Origin: Octopus vulgaris
Lineage: Eukaryota
Length of the DNA stretch: 64,000 nt
Reading direction: 5' to 3'
Assembly: GCA_951406725.2 (NCBI GenBank)
Contig: OX597820.1
Coordinates: 126,108,001-126,172,000 of the forward strand
The position numbers were made by a program, and so were the translations under genes. Numbering within the stretch: position 1 is the first letter of the stretch; the number at the start of each line of letters is the position of its first letter. Below, one piece after another: positions 882 to 49,571 of the stretch. The notes below the pieces were generated by a model that saw only the letters and a program-made list of their open reading frames with translations, made no database searches and was not told where the DNA came from.

Positions 882-954
<73 letters not shown>

Positions 955-1029
955 ATATATATATATATATATATATATACATAATATATATATACATACA
1001 CATACACACACGTATATATATATACATAT

Positions 1030-1081
<52 letters not shown>

Positions 1082-1226
1082 AAAGCAATTAAGATTCAAG
1101 TGAGTTCTGTTGAATTCACATGAATTCGGTACTTAACTTAGATGCACCAGAAATCTATATGCTATTAACCATAAGATAATGCGGGGTGATTATAAACAAG
1201 AAAAAAGCAACAAAAATGGATCAATA

Positions 1227-1316
1227 TTTCGGTACAATTGTTTCGTACGAAGACCAGCTTTATTAAGGCTGCAAATATTGCAGTAAATATAAGTGACCCG
1301 TACTCATCAGCCGAAA
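1227..1316 (-). ncRNA. Type I hammerhead ribozyme (Penelope/retrozyme-like), copy 1
   Basis: Reverse strand reads TTTCGG-CTGATGA-GTACG...CGTAC-GAAA-CAATTG-TA-CCGAAA. Catalytic core intact, stem I TTTCGG/CCGAAA, stem II GTACG/CGTAC, palindromic ACAATTGT at stem III, GUA cleavage triplet. Confidence 0.88.
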
Positions 1317-1603
1317 AAACATCTGAGTTCTCCAAACATCTAAGGGAAAATGGAAATGTAAATCCATCCATATTGAAGTAAGTTTGAAATCAAACTTATT
1401 TCAATACGGATGGATTTACATTTCCATTTTCTGGGAAACTAAAAGGTTTTTTAAAATACTTTTTTAAGACCTGTTATATGGCTGTGCAATATCAAAGAAC
1501 TTTGGAAGTCCGTTTGTTATCTAAATCTGATTTTTATAGAACTATCCCTGATGTTTCAGGAGTGTAGCCTCACCCCCTTAGATGTTTGGAGAACTCAGAT
1601 GTT

Positions 1604-1693
1604 TTTCGGCTGATGAGTACGGGTCACTTATATTTACTGCAATATTTGCAGCCTTAATAAAGCTGGTCTTCGTACGAAACAATTGTACCGAAA
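1604..1693 (+). ncRNA. Type I hammerhead ribozyme, copy 2
   Basis: TTTCGG 1604-1609, CTGATGA 1610-1616, GTACG 1617-1621, CGTAC 1671-1675, GAAA 1676-1679, CAATTGTA, CCGAAA 1688-1693. Predicted cleavage after A1687. Identical to copy 1 over these 90 nt. Confidence 0.88.
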
Positions 1694-1826
1694 TATTGAT
1701 CCATTTTTGTTGCTTTTTTCTTATATATATATATATATATATAGGTACATATGGGCAGCTGAGTGGATGTATGGTTGCGTAAGGGTATGTATGTGTTATG
1801 TGTATATGTGCATGGGTGTGTATATG

Positions 1827-1862
<36 letters not shown>

Positions 1863-2117
1863 TACACACACATATACACACCCATGCACATATATCCACT
1901 CAGCTGCCCATATGTACCTACATGAATATATACATACACAAATACACATATGCGTATATACAGACACACACTTATATATATAAAAAATAACAGCTGCAAT
2001 TTCTGTAATTTATGCATCATTTGTTTGTATATAATATTAAATTGAATCGAATTTATAATTGTTCAATTTATTTTGTTTTCCATTTCTTATGTGTGTATGA
2101 GAGAGAGAGTGTGTGTA

Positions 2118-2797: not shown

Positions 2798-4489
2798 TGT
2801 ATGTATGTATGTATGTATGTACACGCACGCACACAAACAAAAGTGTTGGTTGAAAAATTCATAAGCTGTCCATGAAGGAGCGAAGAAGTGATAGTAAAGC
2901 TGTGAAGTATTGTATGCATTAATTATATAATATATATGTGTATGTGTGTGTGTAAGAGAGAAAGAGGGAGAGAGTACTCCGAAATATTAGCTAAATATTT
3001 CCCCTCCTTCTACATTTTCGTAAATAAAAAAGCGAAATATAATTTCCATCCTTAATACACATTCTTCGCCATAGTTTTGGACAAGTTTCAAATGTTCAAT
3101 TCGACGCTAACCACCAACATAAAAATATCTTTTAAACTTCAGATCAGAACTGTAATTTAATGCAAATTTATAAAATTTAAGATTATTTTTGTCAATGGAT
3201 GCGTCCACACCGATTCATAGAGACTTCCAATGAACACCTGTTTAAGGCGAAAACCGTTCTCAACCACATGGCTTCTGTCTTAGTCTTACTCATATCCAGG
3301 ACACATTATCGCAATGTTTTGTGTAGGAAGAAAACGGACCCCTCCCCCCCTCCACCGATTGTTGCGTGAAATGGGGACGAGCAAATCACTGAGTTTAATC
3401 AAGATTAAGATCATTTGAAATATTTAAAACTTACGCGACGAACGCCATAGCAACGAAGAGACTTGCAGAGTGCTCGAGTTTTTTCTCAAGAATGCACATA
3501 TAATCAAACCCTCTTTTTGTTGCAAACTGGGCAACTCCTATTGGCTATATTCCATTCATTAATCGATTTAGTTCAGCTTTTGTATTTTTCCCGTTGTTTC
3601 GGGTTCTGCATTGCTATTTCTACATAATATTCAGTTTACCAATTTATAAAATTTACGTTTTCACTACAGCATAAACGTTTTGAAAAAGTATCAGTTTTTT
3701 TCTATCTCAATAAAAATTAATTTTTGGTTGTAAAAAACGGTTGCTGTGAAAAAGAATGGACAAGTCGGAAAGATGTGGGCTTAGAAGTAATAATAGGTTT
3801 AACTGAACTTGGAAAATTACAGGACTAGAAGTAGAAGCTTTAAGAAATTACAGATGAAGTTGAAATTTTTAAAAATATATTTATATAAAATTCATTGAAA
3901 TATAGATTTTTAACTTCCTCTTTGAAGAAAACTCTCTGTAGGTGCTCCTATTTAATAAAAGATACTCGATGATGTGAGGGTGTTGATGTCTTGTATATAA
4001 AGAAATGTGGCTTGTCTGTCACAATTTTAAAAAGTTCGACTACCTTTTTCTCGAGTTTTTTCGGATTGTAGCTGACTTGTTATTTATATGTAGAGAAATA
4101 TGAGCTCATGTAGGGGAAGAGAATGCCTTTATATATATTCAACTTGCCTAATAAAACGGACAGCCATATCCTGTTACCTTCGAAATAAGAATATATTGCG
4201 CCGTGGCTTTATTGAGGTCTACCTTTCCCCCGCTAAAATATATGATAATTTACCCCTCTATGGACAAAGAAATCGCAGTCTGTCCCCATGAAACTCTGGA
4301 AATCCAACGATCTTGGGACTGCGATACTCTGAAACTCTCATCGCCACCATCACTCATCTATGAAAGTCTTCAAACAATCCTTACTTGTTTCTAATCCGAA
4401 CCACCCAAAACGAATATTATATAAAATCAAATTCCAACTTCAAATAAAGATATTTTTAAGCTTTGACATCTTGTCTCGATCAATGGAAA

Positions 4490-4750
4490 TGTCTGCTCAT
4501 CAAATTTACGTGCGGATGCTCTACAGCTATGCGTATCCTTAACGTAGTTCACAAATTGATTTAGCGTGACACGCAATGGGACGTGGCTGGCCACTTCAGT
4601 TACAGGTACAACTCATTTTTATCACCTGAGTGGACTGGGACAACGTAAAATAAAGAGTGTCTTGCTCAAGGGTACAACCCACCGCCAGGAATGAAACTTA
4701 CGAATTTACAATCGTGAGCTGGGTACCCTAACCATTTAACACCATGCTTT
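4490..4750 (-). mobile_element. Degenerate tRNA-derived SINE
   Basis: Head with CCTTGAGCAAGACAC; the 3' tail (ccttaacgtagtt...gcgtgacac) is shared with the SINE at 44696-45080. Confidence 0.75.
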
Positions 4751-5235
4751 CACACATACACACACGTTCATATATAGAAAGAGATACATACACACACACA
4801 CACACATACACACACACACACACATACACACACACACATACATACGTTTATGAATTGTGTTATAAGATTCCTGATGTGAAAGCGTGTGTTGAAACAGATA
4901 TTCTTTTATTTCGGGATGGTCATTTTCTATTTTTGGTAAACAAATACACACACTGTGTACTTGCTCTTCAGACGTTTATTACTATGTCTATTGTCCGGCC
5001 GATAAGAACAGTAACAAACGAGTGGAGAACGAATGTATGGTGCGTGTGATTATTTGGCAAAAAAAATGACCTTCCCGAAATACAACAATATGCATGTGTG
5101 TGTGTGTCTGTGTGTGTGTGTGCGTGTGTGTGTGCGCGTGTGTGTGTGCGTGCGTGTGTGTATCTATGACACTTATGTATAGGGAGACAGATAGCTATAT
5201 GTGGATAAATATATATATATATATATATATATTTT

Positions 5236-5277
<42 letters not shown>

Positions 5278-6239
5278 CGTAGCTTATCGTTCAGTTATTA
5301 ACATTCATTTTATGATTGATGCAAATCGTAAAGGCCTAAAAACTCTGCAATACATTCAGTATTCTGGTATTTCGCTATTACATAGTAATGCACTCGGTTC
5401 TTCTCAGCATGAAACTATAATTTTGTTTTTGTACCTCCTTTAGAAATAGAAATTGCTATCTAACGATGAATATAAAATACTGGCTTTGTTGGTATCATTA
5501 AAATTAGATTCAATCAAATGTATCTCCTTTTCCTATTAAATCTCACATCCACGAAGTGTTTAGCTAACGAAAGGATGTTAAAGAAATTGTCAAGGGTAGG
5601 ATATTGTCAATACCAGAACAGTGAAGAGAAATGTGCTGCTACTGTAAGAGGAGTGAGAGTTCAGAATTACAGCTGTTTAACTGCAGGGCGTCAGCAACAC
5701 AATTGTATCAAATTAGCCAGTGGACACAAGGCGCATCTATAACTGTTCAAGGGTCATTTATTGCCAATTTACTTTCTATTACAGTTCTAATTGAACAGCA
5801 TTTCATAGTTGGAAACTACTATTTGCTGTTCTGTACAAAATTTTTCAATGATCAAACTGGAATACGATTAGTTGCTGAGGTTTTCTTTTTATCTTGTTGT
5901 TACTATTATGCTTCGTCGATAAGTTATTTAAAAATAATGCATGATAATTAGTTTATGATAATACTTTCTTCTCTGCATTAAAAAATAATTTTTTGTACCG
6001 ATACTTAAATAACAGAATGAAAGTAGTAAAGTGCATTCAAAATATACTTAAAAGTTATACTCTTTGACTTTATTTCTGTTACGTGTACAGTTAGGAGAGA
6101 CGACATATGTACATGACATGTTAGTCCTCACCACCAGAGCAATAAATGTAATATCAGTTTTATAAACGTGTATATTCCTAATTATAATGGAAAGGCTTAA
6201 GGTAAAATAATTAGTTCGAATATAGTCACAAGAACTGAA

Positions 6240-6771
6240 ATTTTGGTTTGAAGGGGCGAGTGATAGATTACATGGACGCCAGTCTTTGACTAGTACTTAT
6301 TTTATCGACTTCGAAGAATAAAAGGCAAAATCGACCGCGGCAAGATTTGAACTCAGAACGTTAAGTTCGAAGAAATACCTATTTCTTTACTGCCCAGAAG
6401 GGGCTACACACAGAGGGGACAAACAAGGACAGAAAACGGATTAAGTCGATTTTATCGACCCCATTGCGTAACTGGTACTTCATTTATCGACCCCGAAAGG
6501 ATGAAAGGCAAAGTCGACCTCGGCGGAATTTGAACTCAGAACGTAGCGGCAGACGAACTACCTATTTCTTTACTACCCACAAGGGGCTAAACAAAGAGGG
6601 GACAAACAAGGACAGACATAGGTATTAAGTCGATTACATCGACCCCAGTGCGTAACTGGTTCTTAATTTATCGACCCCGAAAGGATGAAAGGCAAAGTCG
6701 ACCTCGGCGGAATTTGAACTCACAACGTAACGCAGACGAAATACCGCTAAGCACTTCACCAGCTCGCCACC
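6240..6771 (-). mobile_element. Trimeric tRNA-SINE array (Meta-domain-like core)
   Basis: Three units with B box GAGTTCAAAT and core GTCGACTTTGCCTTTCATCCTTTCGGGGTCGATAAA. Two young ~183-bp units followed by one diverged unit. Confidence 0.9.
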
Positions 6772-8657
6772 TTTGAAATTTTACTCCGTTTCATTTTCAC
6801 ACATCTTCAACGATGTTAATAAATAACACTTTTAAACAAATTGCTTTAATAAAAGTACAATAGTGAGTCCAGAAATGCAAGATACCGTTTCATACAGAGA
6901 CAGAAATTTGAAGTTCAAGAGGTACAATAGAATATGTTCATCCTGCTACAATTATTTGCTTTAGCTTGTCGCTCTTGCAGTGATCTGTTGTAAAAGCTAT
7001 CCCAGCTCGATTAGAACTGCATAATATGCAACTTAAGCTTTGTAAACACAGCAGAGCATTTTTTCTGTTGCTTTAATTCTGATAATCCACAACTGTGCAA
7101 AGAGGCCGAGATATTATCATTGTCCTGCGGCCATGCTGGAGTGTTTCCTTGAAGGATTTAACCGATCAGATCGCTGCACTGAAGAACCCAACGTTGAATG
7201 TCAAACGATGGCAGAAAAGTACAAAAGTACCTTTACACATATACATACTCACAAACACACACATACACACACACGCATGCACACACACACGCGCGCGCGC
7301 GCATGCACACACACACAAACGCACACACACACACACACATATGTATACATACATGCGTACGTCAGTGCGTACAAAGACACCAGAAGTTTCGGTCTCCGTA
7401 CTGTTTCTCACGATTAAATTAAATCCCAACTGCTCGGCCCGAGACCTTAGCAGAACGTACTTGACCAAAATACGCCGCTCTGGGGCTAAACCTTAAATCA
7501 CGTGGTCTTGAAGTGAATATCTTGACAGACAACAGACAAGTATGAGTTAGCTGGTGTTAAAAAAAACATAAGCGGTCTAATTTTGAATCTTCCAATTTCG
7601 ACACGCATCAGTAACACCATTGATAAGACTTAACTGTGCTGCCAGTTGCATCTAATGAACATTATAGAAAAACACATGATGTAGCAATTATTCATGAGGC
7701 ATACAGATGTCAGAGAGCGTAATTAGATGGGATGAGGAGAAATGCAAAAGAATCTTAAATATAAACTCGATATTATCTTTCCATTATCTGCACACACCTA
7801 CATACATCGCAGAATAAATTAAATACTATCAAATATTTTCAGAGCCTGTGAAAATTTTGCGATCACGTGGAAGTCATGGTTACATGAACATAATTAAATT
7901 TATAAACATATTTTATTGAATTATTGATAAATGCAGTAAAGAGCAGTAGTAATAGATCGGTTGATGAAATGCCTGGCAGTGTTTAGTAACGTCCCTTTTA
8001 TAGTGTATCTTCAAAACCCTGCGTAGCTCGACTTCGATGCAACCATGAAATAAGTACCTGTTAAAATAATTACCGAGTGTTATAAAAGCAAGTGTTCCCA
8101 TTCCAACTGTACGTGTAGCATTCACCTTATATTATAAATCAATAATATATTATTGGAGAGTTGAATTTGTGCAATATTCACACAACCCTATAGCGATTAT
8201 ATATTTTTAAAAGTAAATTTTTAGCAAATTAGAGAATCCTTTTAGAATGCCGTTATTGTTGTTGTAGTTATTATTACTGATGTTTGTCATACTTCTTGTT
8301 ATTACACAGTGCTATTATCAGTGAAGGCGAGCTGGCAGAATCGTTAATGTCGAGGAATTCTTTTTCTGTATTTCTATCGACTCCTTACGTTCTGAGTTCA
8401 AATTCTTCCGAAGTTTATTTTGCAGTTGATAAAATAAAACCCCGCTCAACATTTCTAAAAGAATTCTTATTATTGCTATTGTCGTGGTGACTGCTATTTG
8501 TTTTTGAGAGGTGTCTTTTTCTCCCAACCCTGTCATACATTTTCTTTTGTTAACAATTGGATATTTTCTTTTTGTTCTTCGTTGTCTTTCATATATATTG
8601 ATTGATTGATTGATTCTAGTTTCAGCTCATGAGCTGTGGCCATGCTGGGGCACCGCC

Positions 8658-8715
<58 letters not shown>

Positions 8716-8903
8716 AGGGAGAGTTTACGAAAAAGACAAAAGACGAAGACAGGTGGTGTACAAAACAAACAGATGTATTAGTATAGCGCTCATGAGTAGA
8801 AAAAGTCTTTTACGTTTCGAGCCTACGCTCTTTTACAGAAAGAGACACAGAAAAAACAAGGAGAGAAAAAAATGTGTGTAGTGGCTTACGATCTATCTTG
8901 GCG

Positions 8904-8905
<2 letters not shown>
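8716..8905 (-). mobile_element. Short PLE-like element in (TA)n with variant minimal hammerhead motif
   Basis: Flanked by (TA)n on both sides. Reverse strand 8843-8806 reads TCTTT-CTGTAAA-A-GAGCgtagGCTC-GAAA-CG-TA-AAAGA. Homologous copies at 55385-55685. Confidence 0.6.
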
Positions 8906-8965
<60 letters not shown>

Positions 8966-11127
8966 GTCGTAAAACAAGCCAACGAAGAAATTGTTAAACC
9001 AATGACCGGAATTAGATTTGTTTTGTTGGAGTAGTAAACATAACAATGATTATAAAGTTAATATTACACTGTTGCGTTTTTCAAAACATACAAGATAAAT
9101 AAAATTACATTAATGCTGGTCCAGTAAATAAGTGTAGGTCAGTCTTAACGTGAGAAGTGGAGTTCATATTTTACCTCATGTATTGGGAAAGGCTGAGCTG
9201 CTGAGTTCATACAGTGCACTTGAAACTTTTCTGTGCATAAATAATAAAAGAAGTTCTTGAAGTTTGAGTGGAGAAGCTCTCAGAAGAATTGGATTGTATG
9301 TTAACATTACTACTAAAATAAACGACATGGCTTACAAAGCAACTGATCTGTAATGGTTCGAGATGTATTGATGCGGATCTACTTAGATCTGAATGAATCT
9401 GATCATGAAATTTTGGTAGGGGAATGACATTTTCATAGCGTACACATTGTAAATTAATGTCCCTACATCTATATACTGTTAGATTTTTTTCTTTTCCTTT
9501 GACTGTTCTATGTATGAGTAGGTATACAAAAGTTGCATATAAATGTTTCTTATAATATTTACTTTTGATCTATATATGAAAATATCTAAACAAAAACAAC
9601 AATATTACAGCGTACAAATACAGTTTTGTTATATTCTCCATCGATCGTACTTTCTCAATTATGTTATACTTTTGTCGTTTAATATTTGAAGAATTAAAAG
9701 TGGTGGGTTGACAGAGCCATTAGCCTGTATTTCTACGTCTCCTTACGTTCTGGGTTAAATATTCCGAAATCAAATTTGCCTTTCATCTTTGCAGTGTCCA
9801 TAAGATAGAGTACCAGGGTGCTTGTAGAGTTTATATAGTCAGCTAACGCCCTACTCTCAAATTACTTACCCGCTCGCTTCAATTAGAAACACTATTTATC
9901 CATTAAAACCAGAGATGGATGGTTAGAACGACGGGTAAAAGTCTTAGCATTTTTTTTTCATATTTTCGTTATACCTTTAGTATAAGATCGAATCCAGCTG
10001 AGATTGGCTTTTCCCCCTTCCTCCTCATGAAGTCGATAAAGTGAATTTCCTGCGAAACATTGGAGTCTACTTAAGCAACTGTCATCCACCTCACTAAAAA
10101 AATCTGCAACCTCTGCCAATATTAGAAATAAATATCTCAAACATTTACAAAAGTATTCTCTCATATCTATTCTTTATCAGGCATTAAAATTGCTTAACGT
10201 TTAAACAATTCTCTCCCATACCAACAAATATTCAATTCTACATATTTACTTAGTTTATTCAATTGCTAAGGCTTCGGCACGTACAAGAGATTATACAACC
10301 GCTAAAGCTTTCATAAGAGGGAGAATATTGCAATTATCTCTCGAAACTGCCGATGAGAAAATATTTCTTAACTTAATAATGTTTCTATTTTTTCACTGGT
10401 TATTCCATCTTAATTGAGCTTCTATTTTTTCCAAACGCTGAAGGCGTCCACCATATCCCCAGTATAATGACTAGAAAGTAGCAAAGGAAAGATAAAAGCA
10501 GCAACATTAAGATGCTTTCGCCTACTTCTATATATATTACTGATATATATTTCTTTTTATAGAAAGAGATTTAGTTGAACCAATTGAAGAATTTGGAGCT
10601 TCTGTTTATTTTAGATTAGCAGGAATTTACTTGATTACTTTCGCGCGTTATTAACGAGGCATTGAATACCGGAATATATTAAGCTGCTTCATAGAAAAAG
10701 AAATATTCATCTTTTTTTAGTAGAAGACGAATCTTCTTTGGGAGGATTCCTACGTTTGATTTATGCAATTCTTATGTAATTTAGTAAAACCAAATTTAGA
10801 AATGAAATTATATGACAGAGATTCTCGATGTGATATTAATACTGAATAAATAATAATACAGAAGCACCATCCGTATTAAAAGCATTAGTTGAATTTTAAT
10901 AAATTTAATGAATGATCGTTGAAAAAAAAATCACTAGAAATAAATAATTATGCAGAAAGAAAAGCTTTCGCCGTAGATACTTCAAAGCGGTTCAGGAAAA
11001 CAAACTGGAATCAGTTCCCAGTTTAAATCACACTCAGTCACACCGACGCATAGTCAGATACAAAAACACGCATATATATTACACAAATGCATATACGTAT
11101 ATACATCACTCTTACTGTCTCTCGCTG

Positions 11128-28054: not shown

Positions 28055-29025
28055 TGCATTACTCTTACTTTCATCACGTGCTTTCACTGCAATACCGAGC
28101 GCATCTCTGTGTGCCTTAGGTATGTGCTGTGGTTTGTTGTGATGCTCTTATTTGCACTGTATTGAAAGTGTTCAACATAGGATGTGCGCCGTGCCTAGCA
28201 GTGCTATTTTGTGTATGTTATATATACTTGTTAGTCCTAGTGTTTTTGTTATGTATTTATCTGAATATTTTTTCATCATACCTAATGCGCCTACTATGAC
28301 GGGAATTGTTTCTGTTTTTAGCCTCCACATTCGAGTTACCTCTATTTCCAGGTCTTTGTATTTTTAAAGTTTCTCCATTTCTTTTAGAGATACATTGTGA
28401 TTTGTTGTTATTTATGCACCGAGTAGAATTTTTTCCTGATGATCTCTGACACTATCTCCGGCCTATTGGCCTTAATTTCTCTACCTGTGTGTATTGGCAT
28501 ATCCCAGAGTATGGTTGCTTTCTCATTATCTGTGACATTTTCTAGCGTGTGCCTATACCATCTTTTTTCTATTTTTATTCCATAGTGTTGGCACAGCTTC
28601 CAGTGTATATAGATCCCAACTCTGTCGTGCCGCTGAATATGCTCCTTCTTAGCAGGACTTGGTAACCAGAGATAATATGATTTATTGTTTCTTGTCCATC
28701 TCCCCATATTCTGCAGTTACTTGTCATGCTTCTTTTCATTATATGTTTTTGGTAATTTCTGATGGGGAGGCTTTGGTCTTGTACTGCAATTAAAAAATCA
28801 TCGATCTCTGCTTTGAATCCTGCGCTTCTCAGCCATTCTTGGAATTTTGCTTTGTCCATGTCTTCTTTGTTTAGTTTGATCCAGTATTTGCCATGAAGGG
28901 GCGTTTCTTGCCATCGTTTTATCATGATCAGTTGCCGTTCCAGTTTTAGTTTGGATTTCACTTGTTTTACAGGTTTTGTTCTTTCTTCTTTTTCTTCATA
29001 GTTGTTAGGTACTATGACTTCTTTT
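28055..29025 (-). mobile_element. 5'-truncated R4/Dong retrotransposon (CCHC knuckle and restriction-like endonuclease)
   Basis: WQETPLHGKY, AVQDQSLPIRNY, CRIWGDGQETINHIISG, RHDRVGIYIHWKLC, ILWDMPIHTGREIKANRPEI; frameshifted. Confidence 0.93.
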
Positions 29026-29079
29026 ATTATTACCATTATTATTGTTGTTGTTGTTGTTGTTGTTATTATTATTATCACT

Positions 29080-29607
29080 AAGTGAGAGAGCAGCGCAATG
29101 CATCAAAGTGACACTGGGGTACAAATATACGAAGCCTAATATATCCATCATGACTACCCGTCTGATAAGAGTACACCAGGCACATGCATCACAACCATAT
29201 GTGCACGACGTAGTGATCTCATATGAGGATAAACAGCGCATGACCTTGCTGCTAGAATTTTATTCAGATCGAGTTGCGCATCTCACTGGAGAGATCTCTG
29301 AATATGGGTTGCTTAAAGATGTTGCACGACAAACCCATGTTTCCAGAGGTGAATTATCCATTATCCAAACCCCAAAGAATTCCTTTCAACACATGGCTAG
29401 TTGTGCTCGCCTTGAGAAGTTCACATATAGTCAGCCACTAAGGGACAGGCTCAATTGCTTAAGGTCAAACATTTGACAAGCAAATCTATGGTATGGAGCA
29501 GAATATTTGCTGTAGCCCATCTTTTATACCAAGACAAAACAATTTGCATAACACTTCCAATCAGCTAAAATCAAAAGCTATGAGAGCCACTGCCTGATAC
29601 TGCAACA
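29080..29607 (-). mobile_element. Non-coding (TAA)n-associated element, copy 2
   Basis: Same termini as copy 1, with small internal deletions. Confidence 0.85.
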
Positions 29608-48557: not shown

Positions 48558-49571
48558 TATGTTTGACTTTTGCTTTATGTCTGTACAAGTTGGCTCCAAG
48601 TCTCACCCAGAGACCTCAAGAGATAACAGGTTGGAAGTTCTGTGCCATATATTTGGGTTTTTTTTTTTTTTTTTTGGTATTGTACTAGTGAATGTCTAAT
48701 ACATAAAAAAAAAATAAATAAATAAAAATAAATAAATAAAAAAGTTTGTTTTAAACCTTGGGATTACATAGAGAGTATTTTGCGTAGGATATGAGCAGTT
48801 CCCATGAGCACTATCTTTTGAATTTCTGCCATTTTGGGGTTTCCTGGTATCTGAGTTAGGTAGCAATCAGTCCCTTTCGCTATCATTCCCAGGGCACCTA
48901 TGACAACAGGTATTGTTTTAGTCTTCAGCTTCCACATTTTGCTGATTTCTATTTCAAGATCTTTATATTTGCTCAGTCTTTGGTAGGTCTTGACAGATAC
49001 GTTTATATCGATTGGGACAGTCATATCAATGAGGAGGCATGTTCTTTGTCTGAAGTCTTTCAATATAATGTCTGGCCTATTTGCATCTAGTTTGAATGGT
49101 GAAGTTCCAGAGGAGTGAGATGTGGTCATTTTCAAGCACAGGAGGTGGATTGTGTTCCTACCAGTTTTTTTCATGGGACAAATCCAGGTTTTTGCAAATT
49201 ACCCAGTGAATATATTGTGCAGCTCTATCATGCCTACTGAGGTACTCTGTAGGCGCTAGAAGACTGCATTTGGAGACATGGTCAATGGTTTCATTTTGTT
49301 GTCGGCATACACGACATGTTGGGCTACTACTGTTCTTTAATATGTTGGCCTGGTAGTTTCTTGTTGGTAGGCATTGATCTTGAGCTGCTAGGATAAACCC
49401 CTCTGTTTCAGATTTTAAGCCAGAGGCCATTAGCCATGGATGGGTCAGGGCTTTGTCGATATCTGCATTATTCGCTCTCTTTGGGTATTTGCCATAGAGA
49501 GGTTTTTCTTGCCATTTATTATTCAGAATATCTAAGGCCGCAGTTTTGGCACGGGTTCTCATGCGCCTAGC

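What the first reader, a model, noticed from the sequence alone, without database searches (positions are those of the whole stretch)
1198..1722. Two identical, intact hammerhead ribozymes in a fold-back element inside (TA)n
Seen: 90-nt type I hammerheads at 1227-1316 (-) and 1604-1693 (+), with perfect CUGAUGA/GAAA cores and a GUA cleavage site. Stem II carries an unusually large (~50 nt) insertion with its own hairpin (CTGCAA-TAT-TTGCAG). Stem III is the palindrome ACAATTGT. Established: Penelope-like pLTRs and retrozymes carry type I hammerheads whose palindromic stem III permits dimeric cleavage. Inference: a very young, possibly non-coding ribozyme-bearing retroelement. Either strand of a read-through transcript would contain one sense ribozyme and its antisense copy.
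Basis: partly seen in the sequence, partly recalled or inferred. Interest (0 to 1): 0.78.

Follow-up and report, generated by a model that had tools for sequence, protein, structure and literature searches.

The report
Penelope retrotransposon end with paired hammerheads
This is the cut-short, head-to-head doubled end of a Penelope-like jumping gene of a known group, and its two hammerhead ribozyme motifs likely cut only as pairs; the layout is ordinary, but it is one case of about 25,000 long-stemmed hammerhead motifs in this genome.

Summary
The two identical type I hammerhead motifs are real (1227-1316 minus, 1604-1693 plus). They are not a stand-alone non-coding element. The element spans 1079-1722 and is a 5'-truncated insertion of a Hydra-clade Penelope-like retrotransposon: a 337-nt 3' end, a 42-nt fold-back, and an inverted second 3' end with a 119-nt tail, with (TA)n at both outer ends. 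Longer relatives encode RT plus a C-terminal GIY-YIG; sister subfamilies have intact 957-1072 aa ORFs at about 99% identity. Inverted copies, tails and (TA)n targeting are published. Stems covary across subfamilies and loop III stays self-complementary, supporting dimeric cleavage (untested). Not found in print: stem II of 30-60 nt is the majority form here (24,790 pattern hits, 495 in controls) and Rfam misses it; 31 of 36 inverted pairs have exactly one tailed arm, none two or zero; both 3' ends fall at TATA-like template stretches, suggesting two-site priming. This copy is roughly 1-4 million years old, not very young. Read-through transcripts would meet the antisense arm first and likely silence the ribozyme. 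Verdict: new variant of a known kind, modest interest.

The parts
884..1078 (.). (TA)n/(TG)n microsatellite, left part of the target
1079..1197 (-). 119-nt tail: the 5' UTR that follows the pLTR and runs into the ORF start in full-length copies
1198..1345 (-). tailed arm: last 148 nt of the pLTR, inverted
1227..1316 (-). type I hammerhead motif, copy 1; predicted cut after position 1233
1346..1388 (-). 42-nt inverted copy of the 5' end of the right arm (fold-back junction); 2 differences from the right arm
1386..1722 (+). untailed arm: last 337 nt of the element's 3' UTR/pLTR, 5'-truncated
1604..1693 (+). type I hammerhead motif, copy 2; predicted cut after A1687
1617..1675 (+). long stem II (59 nt) with inner hairpin at 1637-1651
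1679..1686 (+). self-complementary stem III/loop III; predicted 8-bp intermolecular helix in a double hammerhead
1723..1743 (.). (TA)n, right part of the target

Best explanation
The stretch 1079-1722 is a 5'-truncated, inverted double insertion of the 3' end of a Hydra-clade Penelope-like retrotransposon into (TA)n, and each arm carries the element's pLTR hammerhead motif, which likely cuts only as a dimer. Shown: family identity, anatomy, two fixed 3' ends (pLTR end and +119), one of each per inverted pair, (TA)n targets, covarying stems. Inferred: the RT-endonuclease, likely as a dimer, nicks both strands of (TA)n; each nick primes reverse transcription on uncleaved or circular RNA at one of two UA-rich sites about 119 nt apart, probably helped by pairing with the (TA)n primer; the two abortive cDNAs meet head to head and are joined through 1-2 nt microhomologies, here with a short fold-back. 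In full tandem transcripts the two same-strand hammerheads would pair through loop III and release a unit-length RNA. At this locus both ribozymes face outward, so a read-through transcript of either strand makes the antisense arm first and is predicted to trap the ribozyme in a 148-bp duplex: the copy is likely an inert relic.
For: Same arms flank 1.4-4 kb internals with RT (YxDD) and C-terminal GIY-YIG fragments. Sister subfamilies with 77-81% similar pLTRs have intact ORFs in pLTR-tail-ORF-pLTR order and carry the Hydra motifs RW[KR], DKT, CxCx5C, CxxC, CxH, no CCHH. 101 distinct arms: 51 untailed, 45 tailed, 5 other; of 36 inverted pairs 31 are tailed+untailed, 0 both or neither, 5 have an odd end; all 36 face outward; 84 of 96 regular ends are followed by (TA)n. 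Template after each end is TATA-like; contigs of a public run break into (TA)n at the same two places in subfamily C (16 and 15 contigs). Structure count on 35 copies: 95.2% of cells paired, 20 cells with two-sided change, slid controls 29-45%. Loop III AATT, GATT, GATC, ATAT in five subfamilies; outer loop pair kept in 29 of 30 sampled motifs; inner R-R loops are 1,157 of 24,790. Unconstrained cofold of two window copies gives the double hammerhead, -47.4 against -38.6 kcal/mol. Whole element folds into the long duplex on either strand. Precedents.
Against: No cleavage assay. Rfam finds no hammerhead. Monomer fold is not exceptional (z -0.27) and RNAalifold prefers a competing hairpin over stems I and II. 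Only 5 pairs change on both sides (226 of 500 shuffles reach that) and the copies are related. The double-hammerhead cofold was the best structure for subfamilies A and B but not C, D, E, and for 8 of 30 sampled motifs. No intact ORF was seen for the window's own subfamily (longest open frame 696 aa among the top hits of 150 scored of 18,569 candidates). Full ORFs match no Pfam family or PDB chain; GIY-YIG hits are below cut-off. No tree with labelled clades was built. 28 sampled arms are solo, 25 of 27 examined without a detected inverted partner, so double priming is not obligatory. Similarity between the two priming sites is significant in C (p 0.007) but not B (p 0.25). The 143-nt gap in the left side could be a later deletion.
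Confidence: 0.9

Rival explanations
1. A non-autonomous, non-coding retrozyme that spreads through small circular RNAs.
For: Type I hammerhead with palindromic loop III; no ORF in this copy; many short copies; another family in this genome does form 546-bp tandem arrays.
Against: Copies are nested 5' truncations of a 4-5 kb coding element with variable 5' ends and fixed 3' ends; 1 of 37 neighbouring pairs is direct; the two ribozymes are on opposite strands and cannot excise a monomer.
Confidence: 0.04
2. A MITE or fold-back DNA transposon whose terminal inverted repeats happen to contain a hammerhead.
For: 148-nt near-perfect inverted arms, TA-rich target, copies with long inverted ends.
Against: Arms vary from about 50 to over 750 nt and are usually cut at different points; spans 287-4035 nt; one end always differs by a tail; internals encode RT and GIY-YIG, not a transposase.
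Confidence: 0.02
3. Same element, but the inversion arose after insertion or from one cDNA folding back (hairpin-primed second strand, later deletion), not from two priming events.
For: The centre at 1386-1389 is a hairpin-like junction; a few pairs are cut at nearly the same point (L126, L129).
Against: A fold-back copy of one cDNA cannot add 119 nt that the template arm lacks; tail asymmetry is strict and most pairs are cut at different points.
Confidence: 0.12
4. The locus has been co-opted as a functional ribozyme or dsRNA switch in a host transcript.
For: Both motifs are unmutated; the arms hold no private substitution while the unpaired parts hold 5-8.
Against: Private substitution rate is the same in paired arms (37 of 7,882 nt) and solo arms (20 of 3,864 nt), so 0 in 280 nt is unremarkable; no host gene was identified around it.
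Confidence: 0.03

Closest known systems
Hydra-clade Penelope-like elements, including Hydra-1_Obim and Penelope-13_HM (Craig et al. 2021, PMC8557442)
   Same: C-terminal GIY-YIG, RWK, DKT, CxCx5C, no CCHH, 3' hammerhead, (TA)n target; Penelope-13_HM has an inverted 5'-truncated copy and the same hammerhead on both strands.
   Different: Stem II span 57-60 nt against about 26 nt or less in the 26 Hydra rows of File S2; unit about 4.6 kb against under 3 kb; two Asn-rich inserts (109-178 and 192-237 aa); tail 119 nt against 30-40 nt. Hydra-1_Obim is a different family (other hammerhead sequence, loop 2 of 8 nt).
PLE minimal hammerheads (Cervera and de la Pena 2014, PMC4209133)
   Same: In pLTRs, palindromic loop III, proposed dimers; opposite-strand pairs 100-700 bp apart ascribed to truncated PLEs.
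   Different: 6-bp stem I, 2-bp stem III and a ~50-nt structured loop II; far more copies than the 4,000-9,000 reported for coelacanth and Xenopus.
PAc Poseidon element (Frangieh et al. 2024, PMC11167929)
   Same: Two internal RT start sites bounding the tail; both strands cut and extended; uncleaved RNA as template; predicted dimer.
   Different: Other clade; there priming is at a site not homologous to the cut DNA, here both ends sit at TATA-like stretches matching the (TA)n target (inferred from junctions).
Animal non-LTR retrozymes (PMC7229834; bioRxiv 10.64898/2026.07.22.740005)
   Same: Type I hammerheads of likely PLE origin.
   Different: Those are same-strand tandem arrays of 150-450 nt units; this family is dispersed, inverted and tied to an ORF.
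PLE-X1_sMoe hammerhead (File S2 of PMC8557442)
   Same: PLE hammerhead with a 35-nt loop 2: precedent for a long stem II.
   Different: Single spike-moss, endonuclease-less Chlamys-type family.

Membership tests
Type I hammerhead ribozyme | CUGANGA and GAAA core, UH cut site, open stem I | tested here: met
Type I hammerhead ribozyme | Three helices kept by compensatory change | tested here: met
   two-sided changes in stem I (2 pairs), base of stem II, loop III; few independent lineages; prefers another fold
Type I hammerhead ribozyme | Match to an Rfam hammerhead model | tested here: not met
   likely because of the 49-nt insert (inference)
Type I hammerhead ribozyme | Self-cleavage 3' of GUA | not testable with these tools
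   only contigs were served
EN+ Penelope-like element | Single ORF with RT and GIY-YIG between pLTRs | tested here: met
   in relatives, not in this truncated copy; Pfam GIY-YIG only below cut-off
EN+ Penelope-like element | Tandem/inverted insertions, tail at one end, hammerhead in pLTR | tested here: met
Hydra clade | RWK and DKT motifs | tested here: met
   RWK in P0002, RWR in P0001, RWA in P0003; ADKT in all
Hydra clade | CxCx5C linker, C-terminal EN without CCHH, CxxC and CxH around E/N | tested here: met
Hydra clade | No insertion in fingers | tested here: met
   RT3-RT4 spacing 64 aa in P0002 against 65 in Hydra-1_Obim, counted by eye
Hydra clade | Insertion into (TA)n | tested here: met
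   84 of 96 regular ends
Hydra clade | Generally under 3 kb (typical, not defining) | tested here: not met
   hammerhead-to-hammerhead 4,650 nt in L084
Hydra clade | Placement in an RT tree with labelled clades | not tested
   no labelled reference proteins were held as tool sequences
Non-LTR retrozyme | Same-strand tandem units each with a hammerhead, no coding parent | tested here: not met
Non-LTR retrozyme | Small circular RNA | not testable with these tools
MITE / fold-back DNA transposon | Fixed symmetric terminal inverted repeats, uniform size, transposase parent | tested here: not met
DIRS-type retrotransposon | Tyrosine recombinase and internal complementary region (features recalled) | tested here: not met
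   the ORF ends in GIY-YIG and no second ORF was seen

The most novel reading that the evidence does not exclude
This octopus genome holds about 25,000 dimer-type hammerheads of a long-stem-II class that Rfam and the published short-spacer descriptors miss, spread by dozens of Penelope-like families of which some are still active; the insert is a selected RNA module (protein-binding or folding switch), and these elements insert by a two-primer reaction in which each nicked (TA)n strand pairs with its own UA-rich site on the RNA, one per protomer.
Probability: 0.3. Interest if true: 0.65.

Novelty: new variant of a known kind. Interest (0 to 1): 0.42.

Why it matters
How Penelope-like elements make inverted repeats and tails, and what their hammerheads do, are open questions (PMC8557442 section 15; PMC11167929). 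Here one genome offers a strict one-tail-per-inverted-pair rule, junctions that point to primer-template pairing, near-identical intact elements of the Hydra clade for biochemistry, and a natural covariation set of thousands of hammerheads with 13 of the 16 palindromic loop III tetramers (my reading). It also warns that ribozyme censuses with short loop II limits undercount. The single locus is likely an inert fossil.

Tried and rejected
Rfam at two thresholds: no hammerhead, only miRNA-hairpin noise on the 1346-1431 palindrome. Pfam on 10 fragments, 3 full ORFs and 9 further proteins, and PDB: nothing above cut-off. Sequencing runs: no RNA holder listed; all 24 are contigs. Laying contigs on 1085-1388 and on a subfamily C pLTR showed no place where many molecules begin or end and no contig across the locus-specific junction at 1345/1346, so expression, cleavage, editing and orthology stay open; a few contigs start 2 nt either side of the predicted cut, which I do not count as evidence. 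Gene conversion as the cause of arm identity: no support. Inverted partner for every insertion: 2 of 27 examined solo arms had a tail-only inverted piece. Idea that long-stem hammerheads belong to Naiads: of 20 loci fetched, 3 had an upstream ORF match on the hammerhead's strand (L181, L183, L193), all Hydra-like; the rest gave no PLE ORF, and only Hydra-like proteins were used as queries, so this is unresolved. Earlier scan findings: none. Second fold-back at 1742-1920: no family found. No covariance model, structure prediction or tree was run.

Full report
Observation. The motifs are in the sequence as described. My scan for a type I hammerhead (core, stems I-III) found two hits in the 64-kb window, at 1610 (+) and 1310 (-), and none in 50 block shuffles. 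The arms are identical over 1198-1318/1602-1722 and differ by one indel over 148 nt. Rfam gave no hammerhead hit at gathering score or at E<=5. The monomer does not fold unusually well (z -0.27), but the hammerhead fold lies within 1.2 kcal/mol of the minimum.

Genome context. The window lies in a 2.8-Gb assembly. I infer an octopus: the one named homolog is labelled Octopus sinensis, and the 183-nt repeat at 6266-6745 resembles an octopus SINE (recalled, not tested). A search with 1079-1722 gave 2,902 candidates, 40 scored, 132 matches. An exact 24-mer from the ribozyme occurs 236 times, control 0; among the first 100 listed I count 21 outward-facing pairs. Contigs at least 90% alike were laid from runs of three organism labels.

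What it is. Other loci carry the same arms around 1.4-4 kb internals with frameshifted RT and GIY-YIG coding fragments. A protein search of the genome (150 scored of 6,149 candidates) led to intact ORFs of 1072 aa (subfamily B, two copies 99.2% identical), 957 aa (C; five copies 98.7-99.9%, a sixth at 94-95%) and 836 aa (E). An RT fragment of the window's subfamily A is 84% identical to C. These proteins carry the Hydra-clade motifs listed by Craig et al. (PMC8557442 section 11): RW[KR], DKT, CxCx5C, C-terminal GIY-YIG without CCHH, CxxC and CxH. Of 41 database homologs 40 have DK[TS], 33 the CxC linker, 0 ADKG. In full copies the order is pLTR with hammerhead, tail, ORF, long 3' UTR, pLTR. 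So 1079-1197 is the PLE tail, 1198-1345 and 1386-1722 are two 5'-truncated 3' ends head to head, and 1346-1388 is a 42-nt inverted copy of the right arm's 5' end joined by 1-2 nt overlaps. Clade membership rests on motifs and a by-eye comparison with the published Hydra-1_Obim alignment; no tree was built.

Insertion rule. In 100 loci chosen by similarity or pattern (biased toward pairs) I mapped 101 distinct arms: 51 end at the pLTR end, 45 at about +119, 5 elsewhere; 84 of the 96 regular ends run into (TA)n. Of 37 neighbouring pairs 36 are inverted, all facing outward; 31 have one tailed and one untailed arm, none two or zero, 5 have an odd end. The sister subfamilies show the same (L086, L096, L100). 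28 arms are solo; 2 of 27 examined had an inverted tail-only piece. In full-length templates both ends lie at TATA-like stretches, and contigs of a public run break into (TA)n at these two places. The two sites resemble each other in C (p 0.007, 2,000 shuffles) but not in B (p 0.25).

Mechanism. Frangieh et al. (PMC11167929, parts 1-2 of 4 read) showed that a Poseidon protein cuts and extends both strands, starts reverse transcription at two internal sites that bound the tail, uses uncleaved RNA, and assists its ribozyme. I infer the same here with two nicks in (TA)n, one cDNA from each site, likely aided by primer-template pairing, aborted early and joined head to head. Both start sites lie downstream of the cut site (35 nt before the pLTR end), so the template must be uncleaved or religated RNA; 5' pLTRs of full copies reach upstream of the cut site, which fits more-than-unit or circular templates.

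The ribozyme. On 35 distinct copies from six sequence groups (19 of subfamily A) 95.2% of 840 cells pair, 20 cells change on both sides, slid controls give 29-45%; only 5 pairs change on both sides, which 226 of 500 shuffles reach, and the copies are related. RNAalifold prefers a competing hairpin. Loop III reads AATT (A, D), GATT (C), GATC (B), ATAT (E): always self-pairing, with the wobble intermediate present. Cofolding two window copies without constraint returns the double hammerhead; this also held for B but not C, D, E, and for 8 of 30 sampled motifs, 15 of 30 forming the 8-bp intermolecular helix. At this locus the copies are on opposite strands and face outward, so a read-through transcript of either strand makes the antisense arm first; the element folds into the long duplex at about -365 kcal/mol. 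Activity here is therefore unlikely unless a pLTR promoter fires outward from within an arm (inference).

Long stem II is the norm in this genome. Pattern counts with a 30-60 nt spacer: 15,324, 8,309 and 1,157 for the three loop classes (controls 137, 215, 143); with an 8-29 nt spacer 6,350 for the first class (control 173). These are pattern hits, not verified ribozymes: of 30 inspected, 13 had a contiguous stem I of 4 bp or more. The outer loop III positions, free in the pattern, pair in 29 of 30 and by my hand count in 93 of the first 100. The purine-purine class is dominated by one family with a CGAG loop. Three of 20 further loci tied other long-stem families to Hydra-like ORFs.

Age. The copy has 5 substitutions seen in none of 40-50 sampled copies and 3 more seen in 2-3, about 0.8-1.2% of 646 nt. 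With the calibration quoted in PMC13282606 (0.09 = 25 My; passages) that is roughly 1-4 My, an order-of-magnitude inference. Identical arms are not exceptional: 4 of 24 pairs have none, and paired and solo arms mutate alike. Subfamily A copies are 91-96% alike and no open frame above 696 aa was seen for it; B and C are younger.

Literature. Read: PMC8557442 abstract, sections 6, 11, 15, passages, supplement part 2 and search hits; PMC4209133 parts 1-2 of 4; PMC11167929 parts 1-2 of 4; bioRxiv 10.64898/2026.07.22.740005 part 1 of 5 and passages (its supplements not seen); passages of PMC13282606, PMC3088659, PMC7229834, PMC6962438. Published already: inverted 5'-truncated copies, a 30-40 nt tail at one end, (TA)n bias, hammerheads in all Hydra families, an octopus Hydra family, opposite-strand hammerhead pairs 100-700 bp apart, palindromic loop III dimers, one PLE hammerhead with a 35-nt loop 2. 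Not found in searches: the long-stem majority class and its count in octopus, the strict one-tail rule, priming homology to (TA)n. That library lacks most subscription papers, and Repbase and Dfam could not be searched, so these families may be catalogued. The giant squid annotation lists 235 Rfam hammerheads.

Verdict. Observation confirmed; interpretation partly supported. A known kind of element in a known arrangement, with a variant ribozyme and useful mechanistic statistics. New variant of a known kind; interest 0.42.

Noticed in passing
window 1742-1920: A second fold-back directly beside the element: 27-nt outer arms plus inner arms around (TA)n. A genome search found only weak low-complexity matches.
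   Followed up: partly
G000, genome-wide: About 31,000 hammerhead-pattern hits in all, in dozens of families, many as outward-facing pairs; most have a 30-60 nt stem II.
   Followed up: partly
G000:C2:8129421-8131542 and C1:176514342-176515118: A long-stem family with CGAG loop III forms same-strand tandem copies about 546 bp apart, retrozyme-like; its dimer would hold tandem G-A pairs.
   Followed up: no
L081, L082, L084-L089, L091-L093: Near-identical Hydra-clade copies with intact ORFs, likely recently active; two Asn-rich inserts absent from about 700-aa homologs.
   Followed up: partly
L182 (4.4 kb) and L184 (8.8 kb): Long outward-facing hammerhead pairs with no detectable PLE ORF between them; possibly non-autonomous long elements.
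   Followed up: no
L034:2236-3501: A subfamily A tail runs straight into the RT of a more distant Hydra-like family, not into (TA)n: a template switch or nested insertion.
   Followed up: no
L126 (G000:C2:78458445-78458731): Inverted pair with both arms cut at -67 and (TA)n between them.
   Followed up: no
PMC8557442 supplement, 3' end of the Naiad entry printed before Naiad_Ovul: Hammerhead core halves appear in swapped order with pairing partners, by eye like a permuted hammerhead; eight Naiads are flagged 'half core'. 'Naiads lack hammerheads' may partly reflect the descriptor.
   Followed up: no
window 6266-6745: 2.6 tandem copies of a 183-nt unit resembling an octopus tRNA-derived SINE (name recalled).
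   Followed up: no
window 28578-29102 and 48767-49198 (-): ORF fragments like the C-terminus of a non-LTR retrotransposon, similar by eye to an ORF in L186; no Pfam hit.
   Followed up: partly
P0018: A database protein named as an ankyrin repeat protein of Octopus sinensis is 70% identical to the Hydra RT over 42% of the query: likely a chimeric gene model.
   Followed up: no
G000:C2:127497063 and C2:127873296: Two identical inverted insertions 376 kb apart, likely a segmental duplication; counted as two pairs.
   Followed up: no
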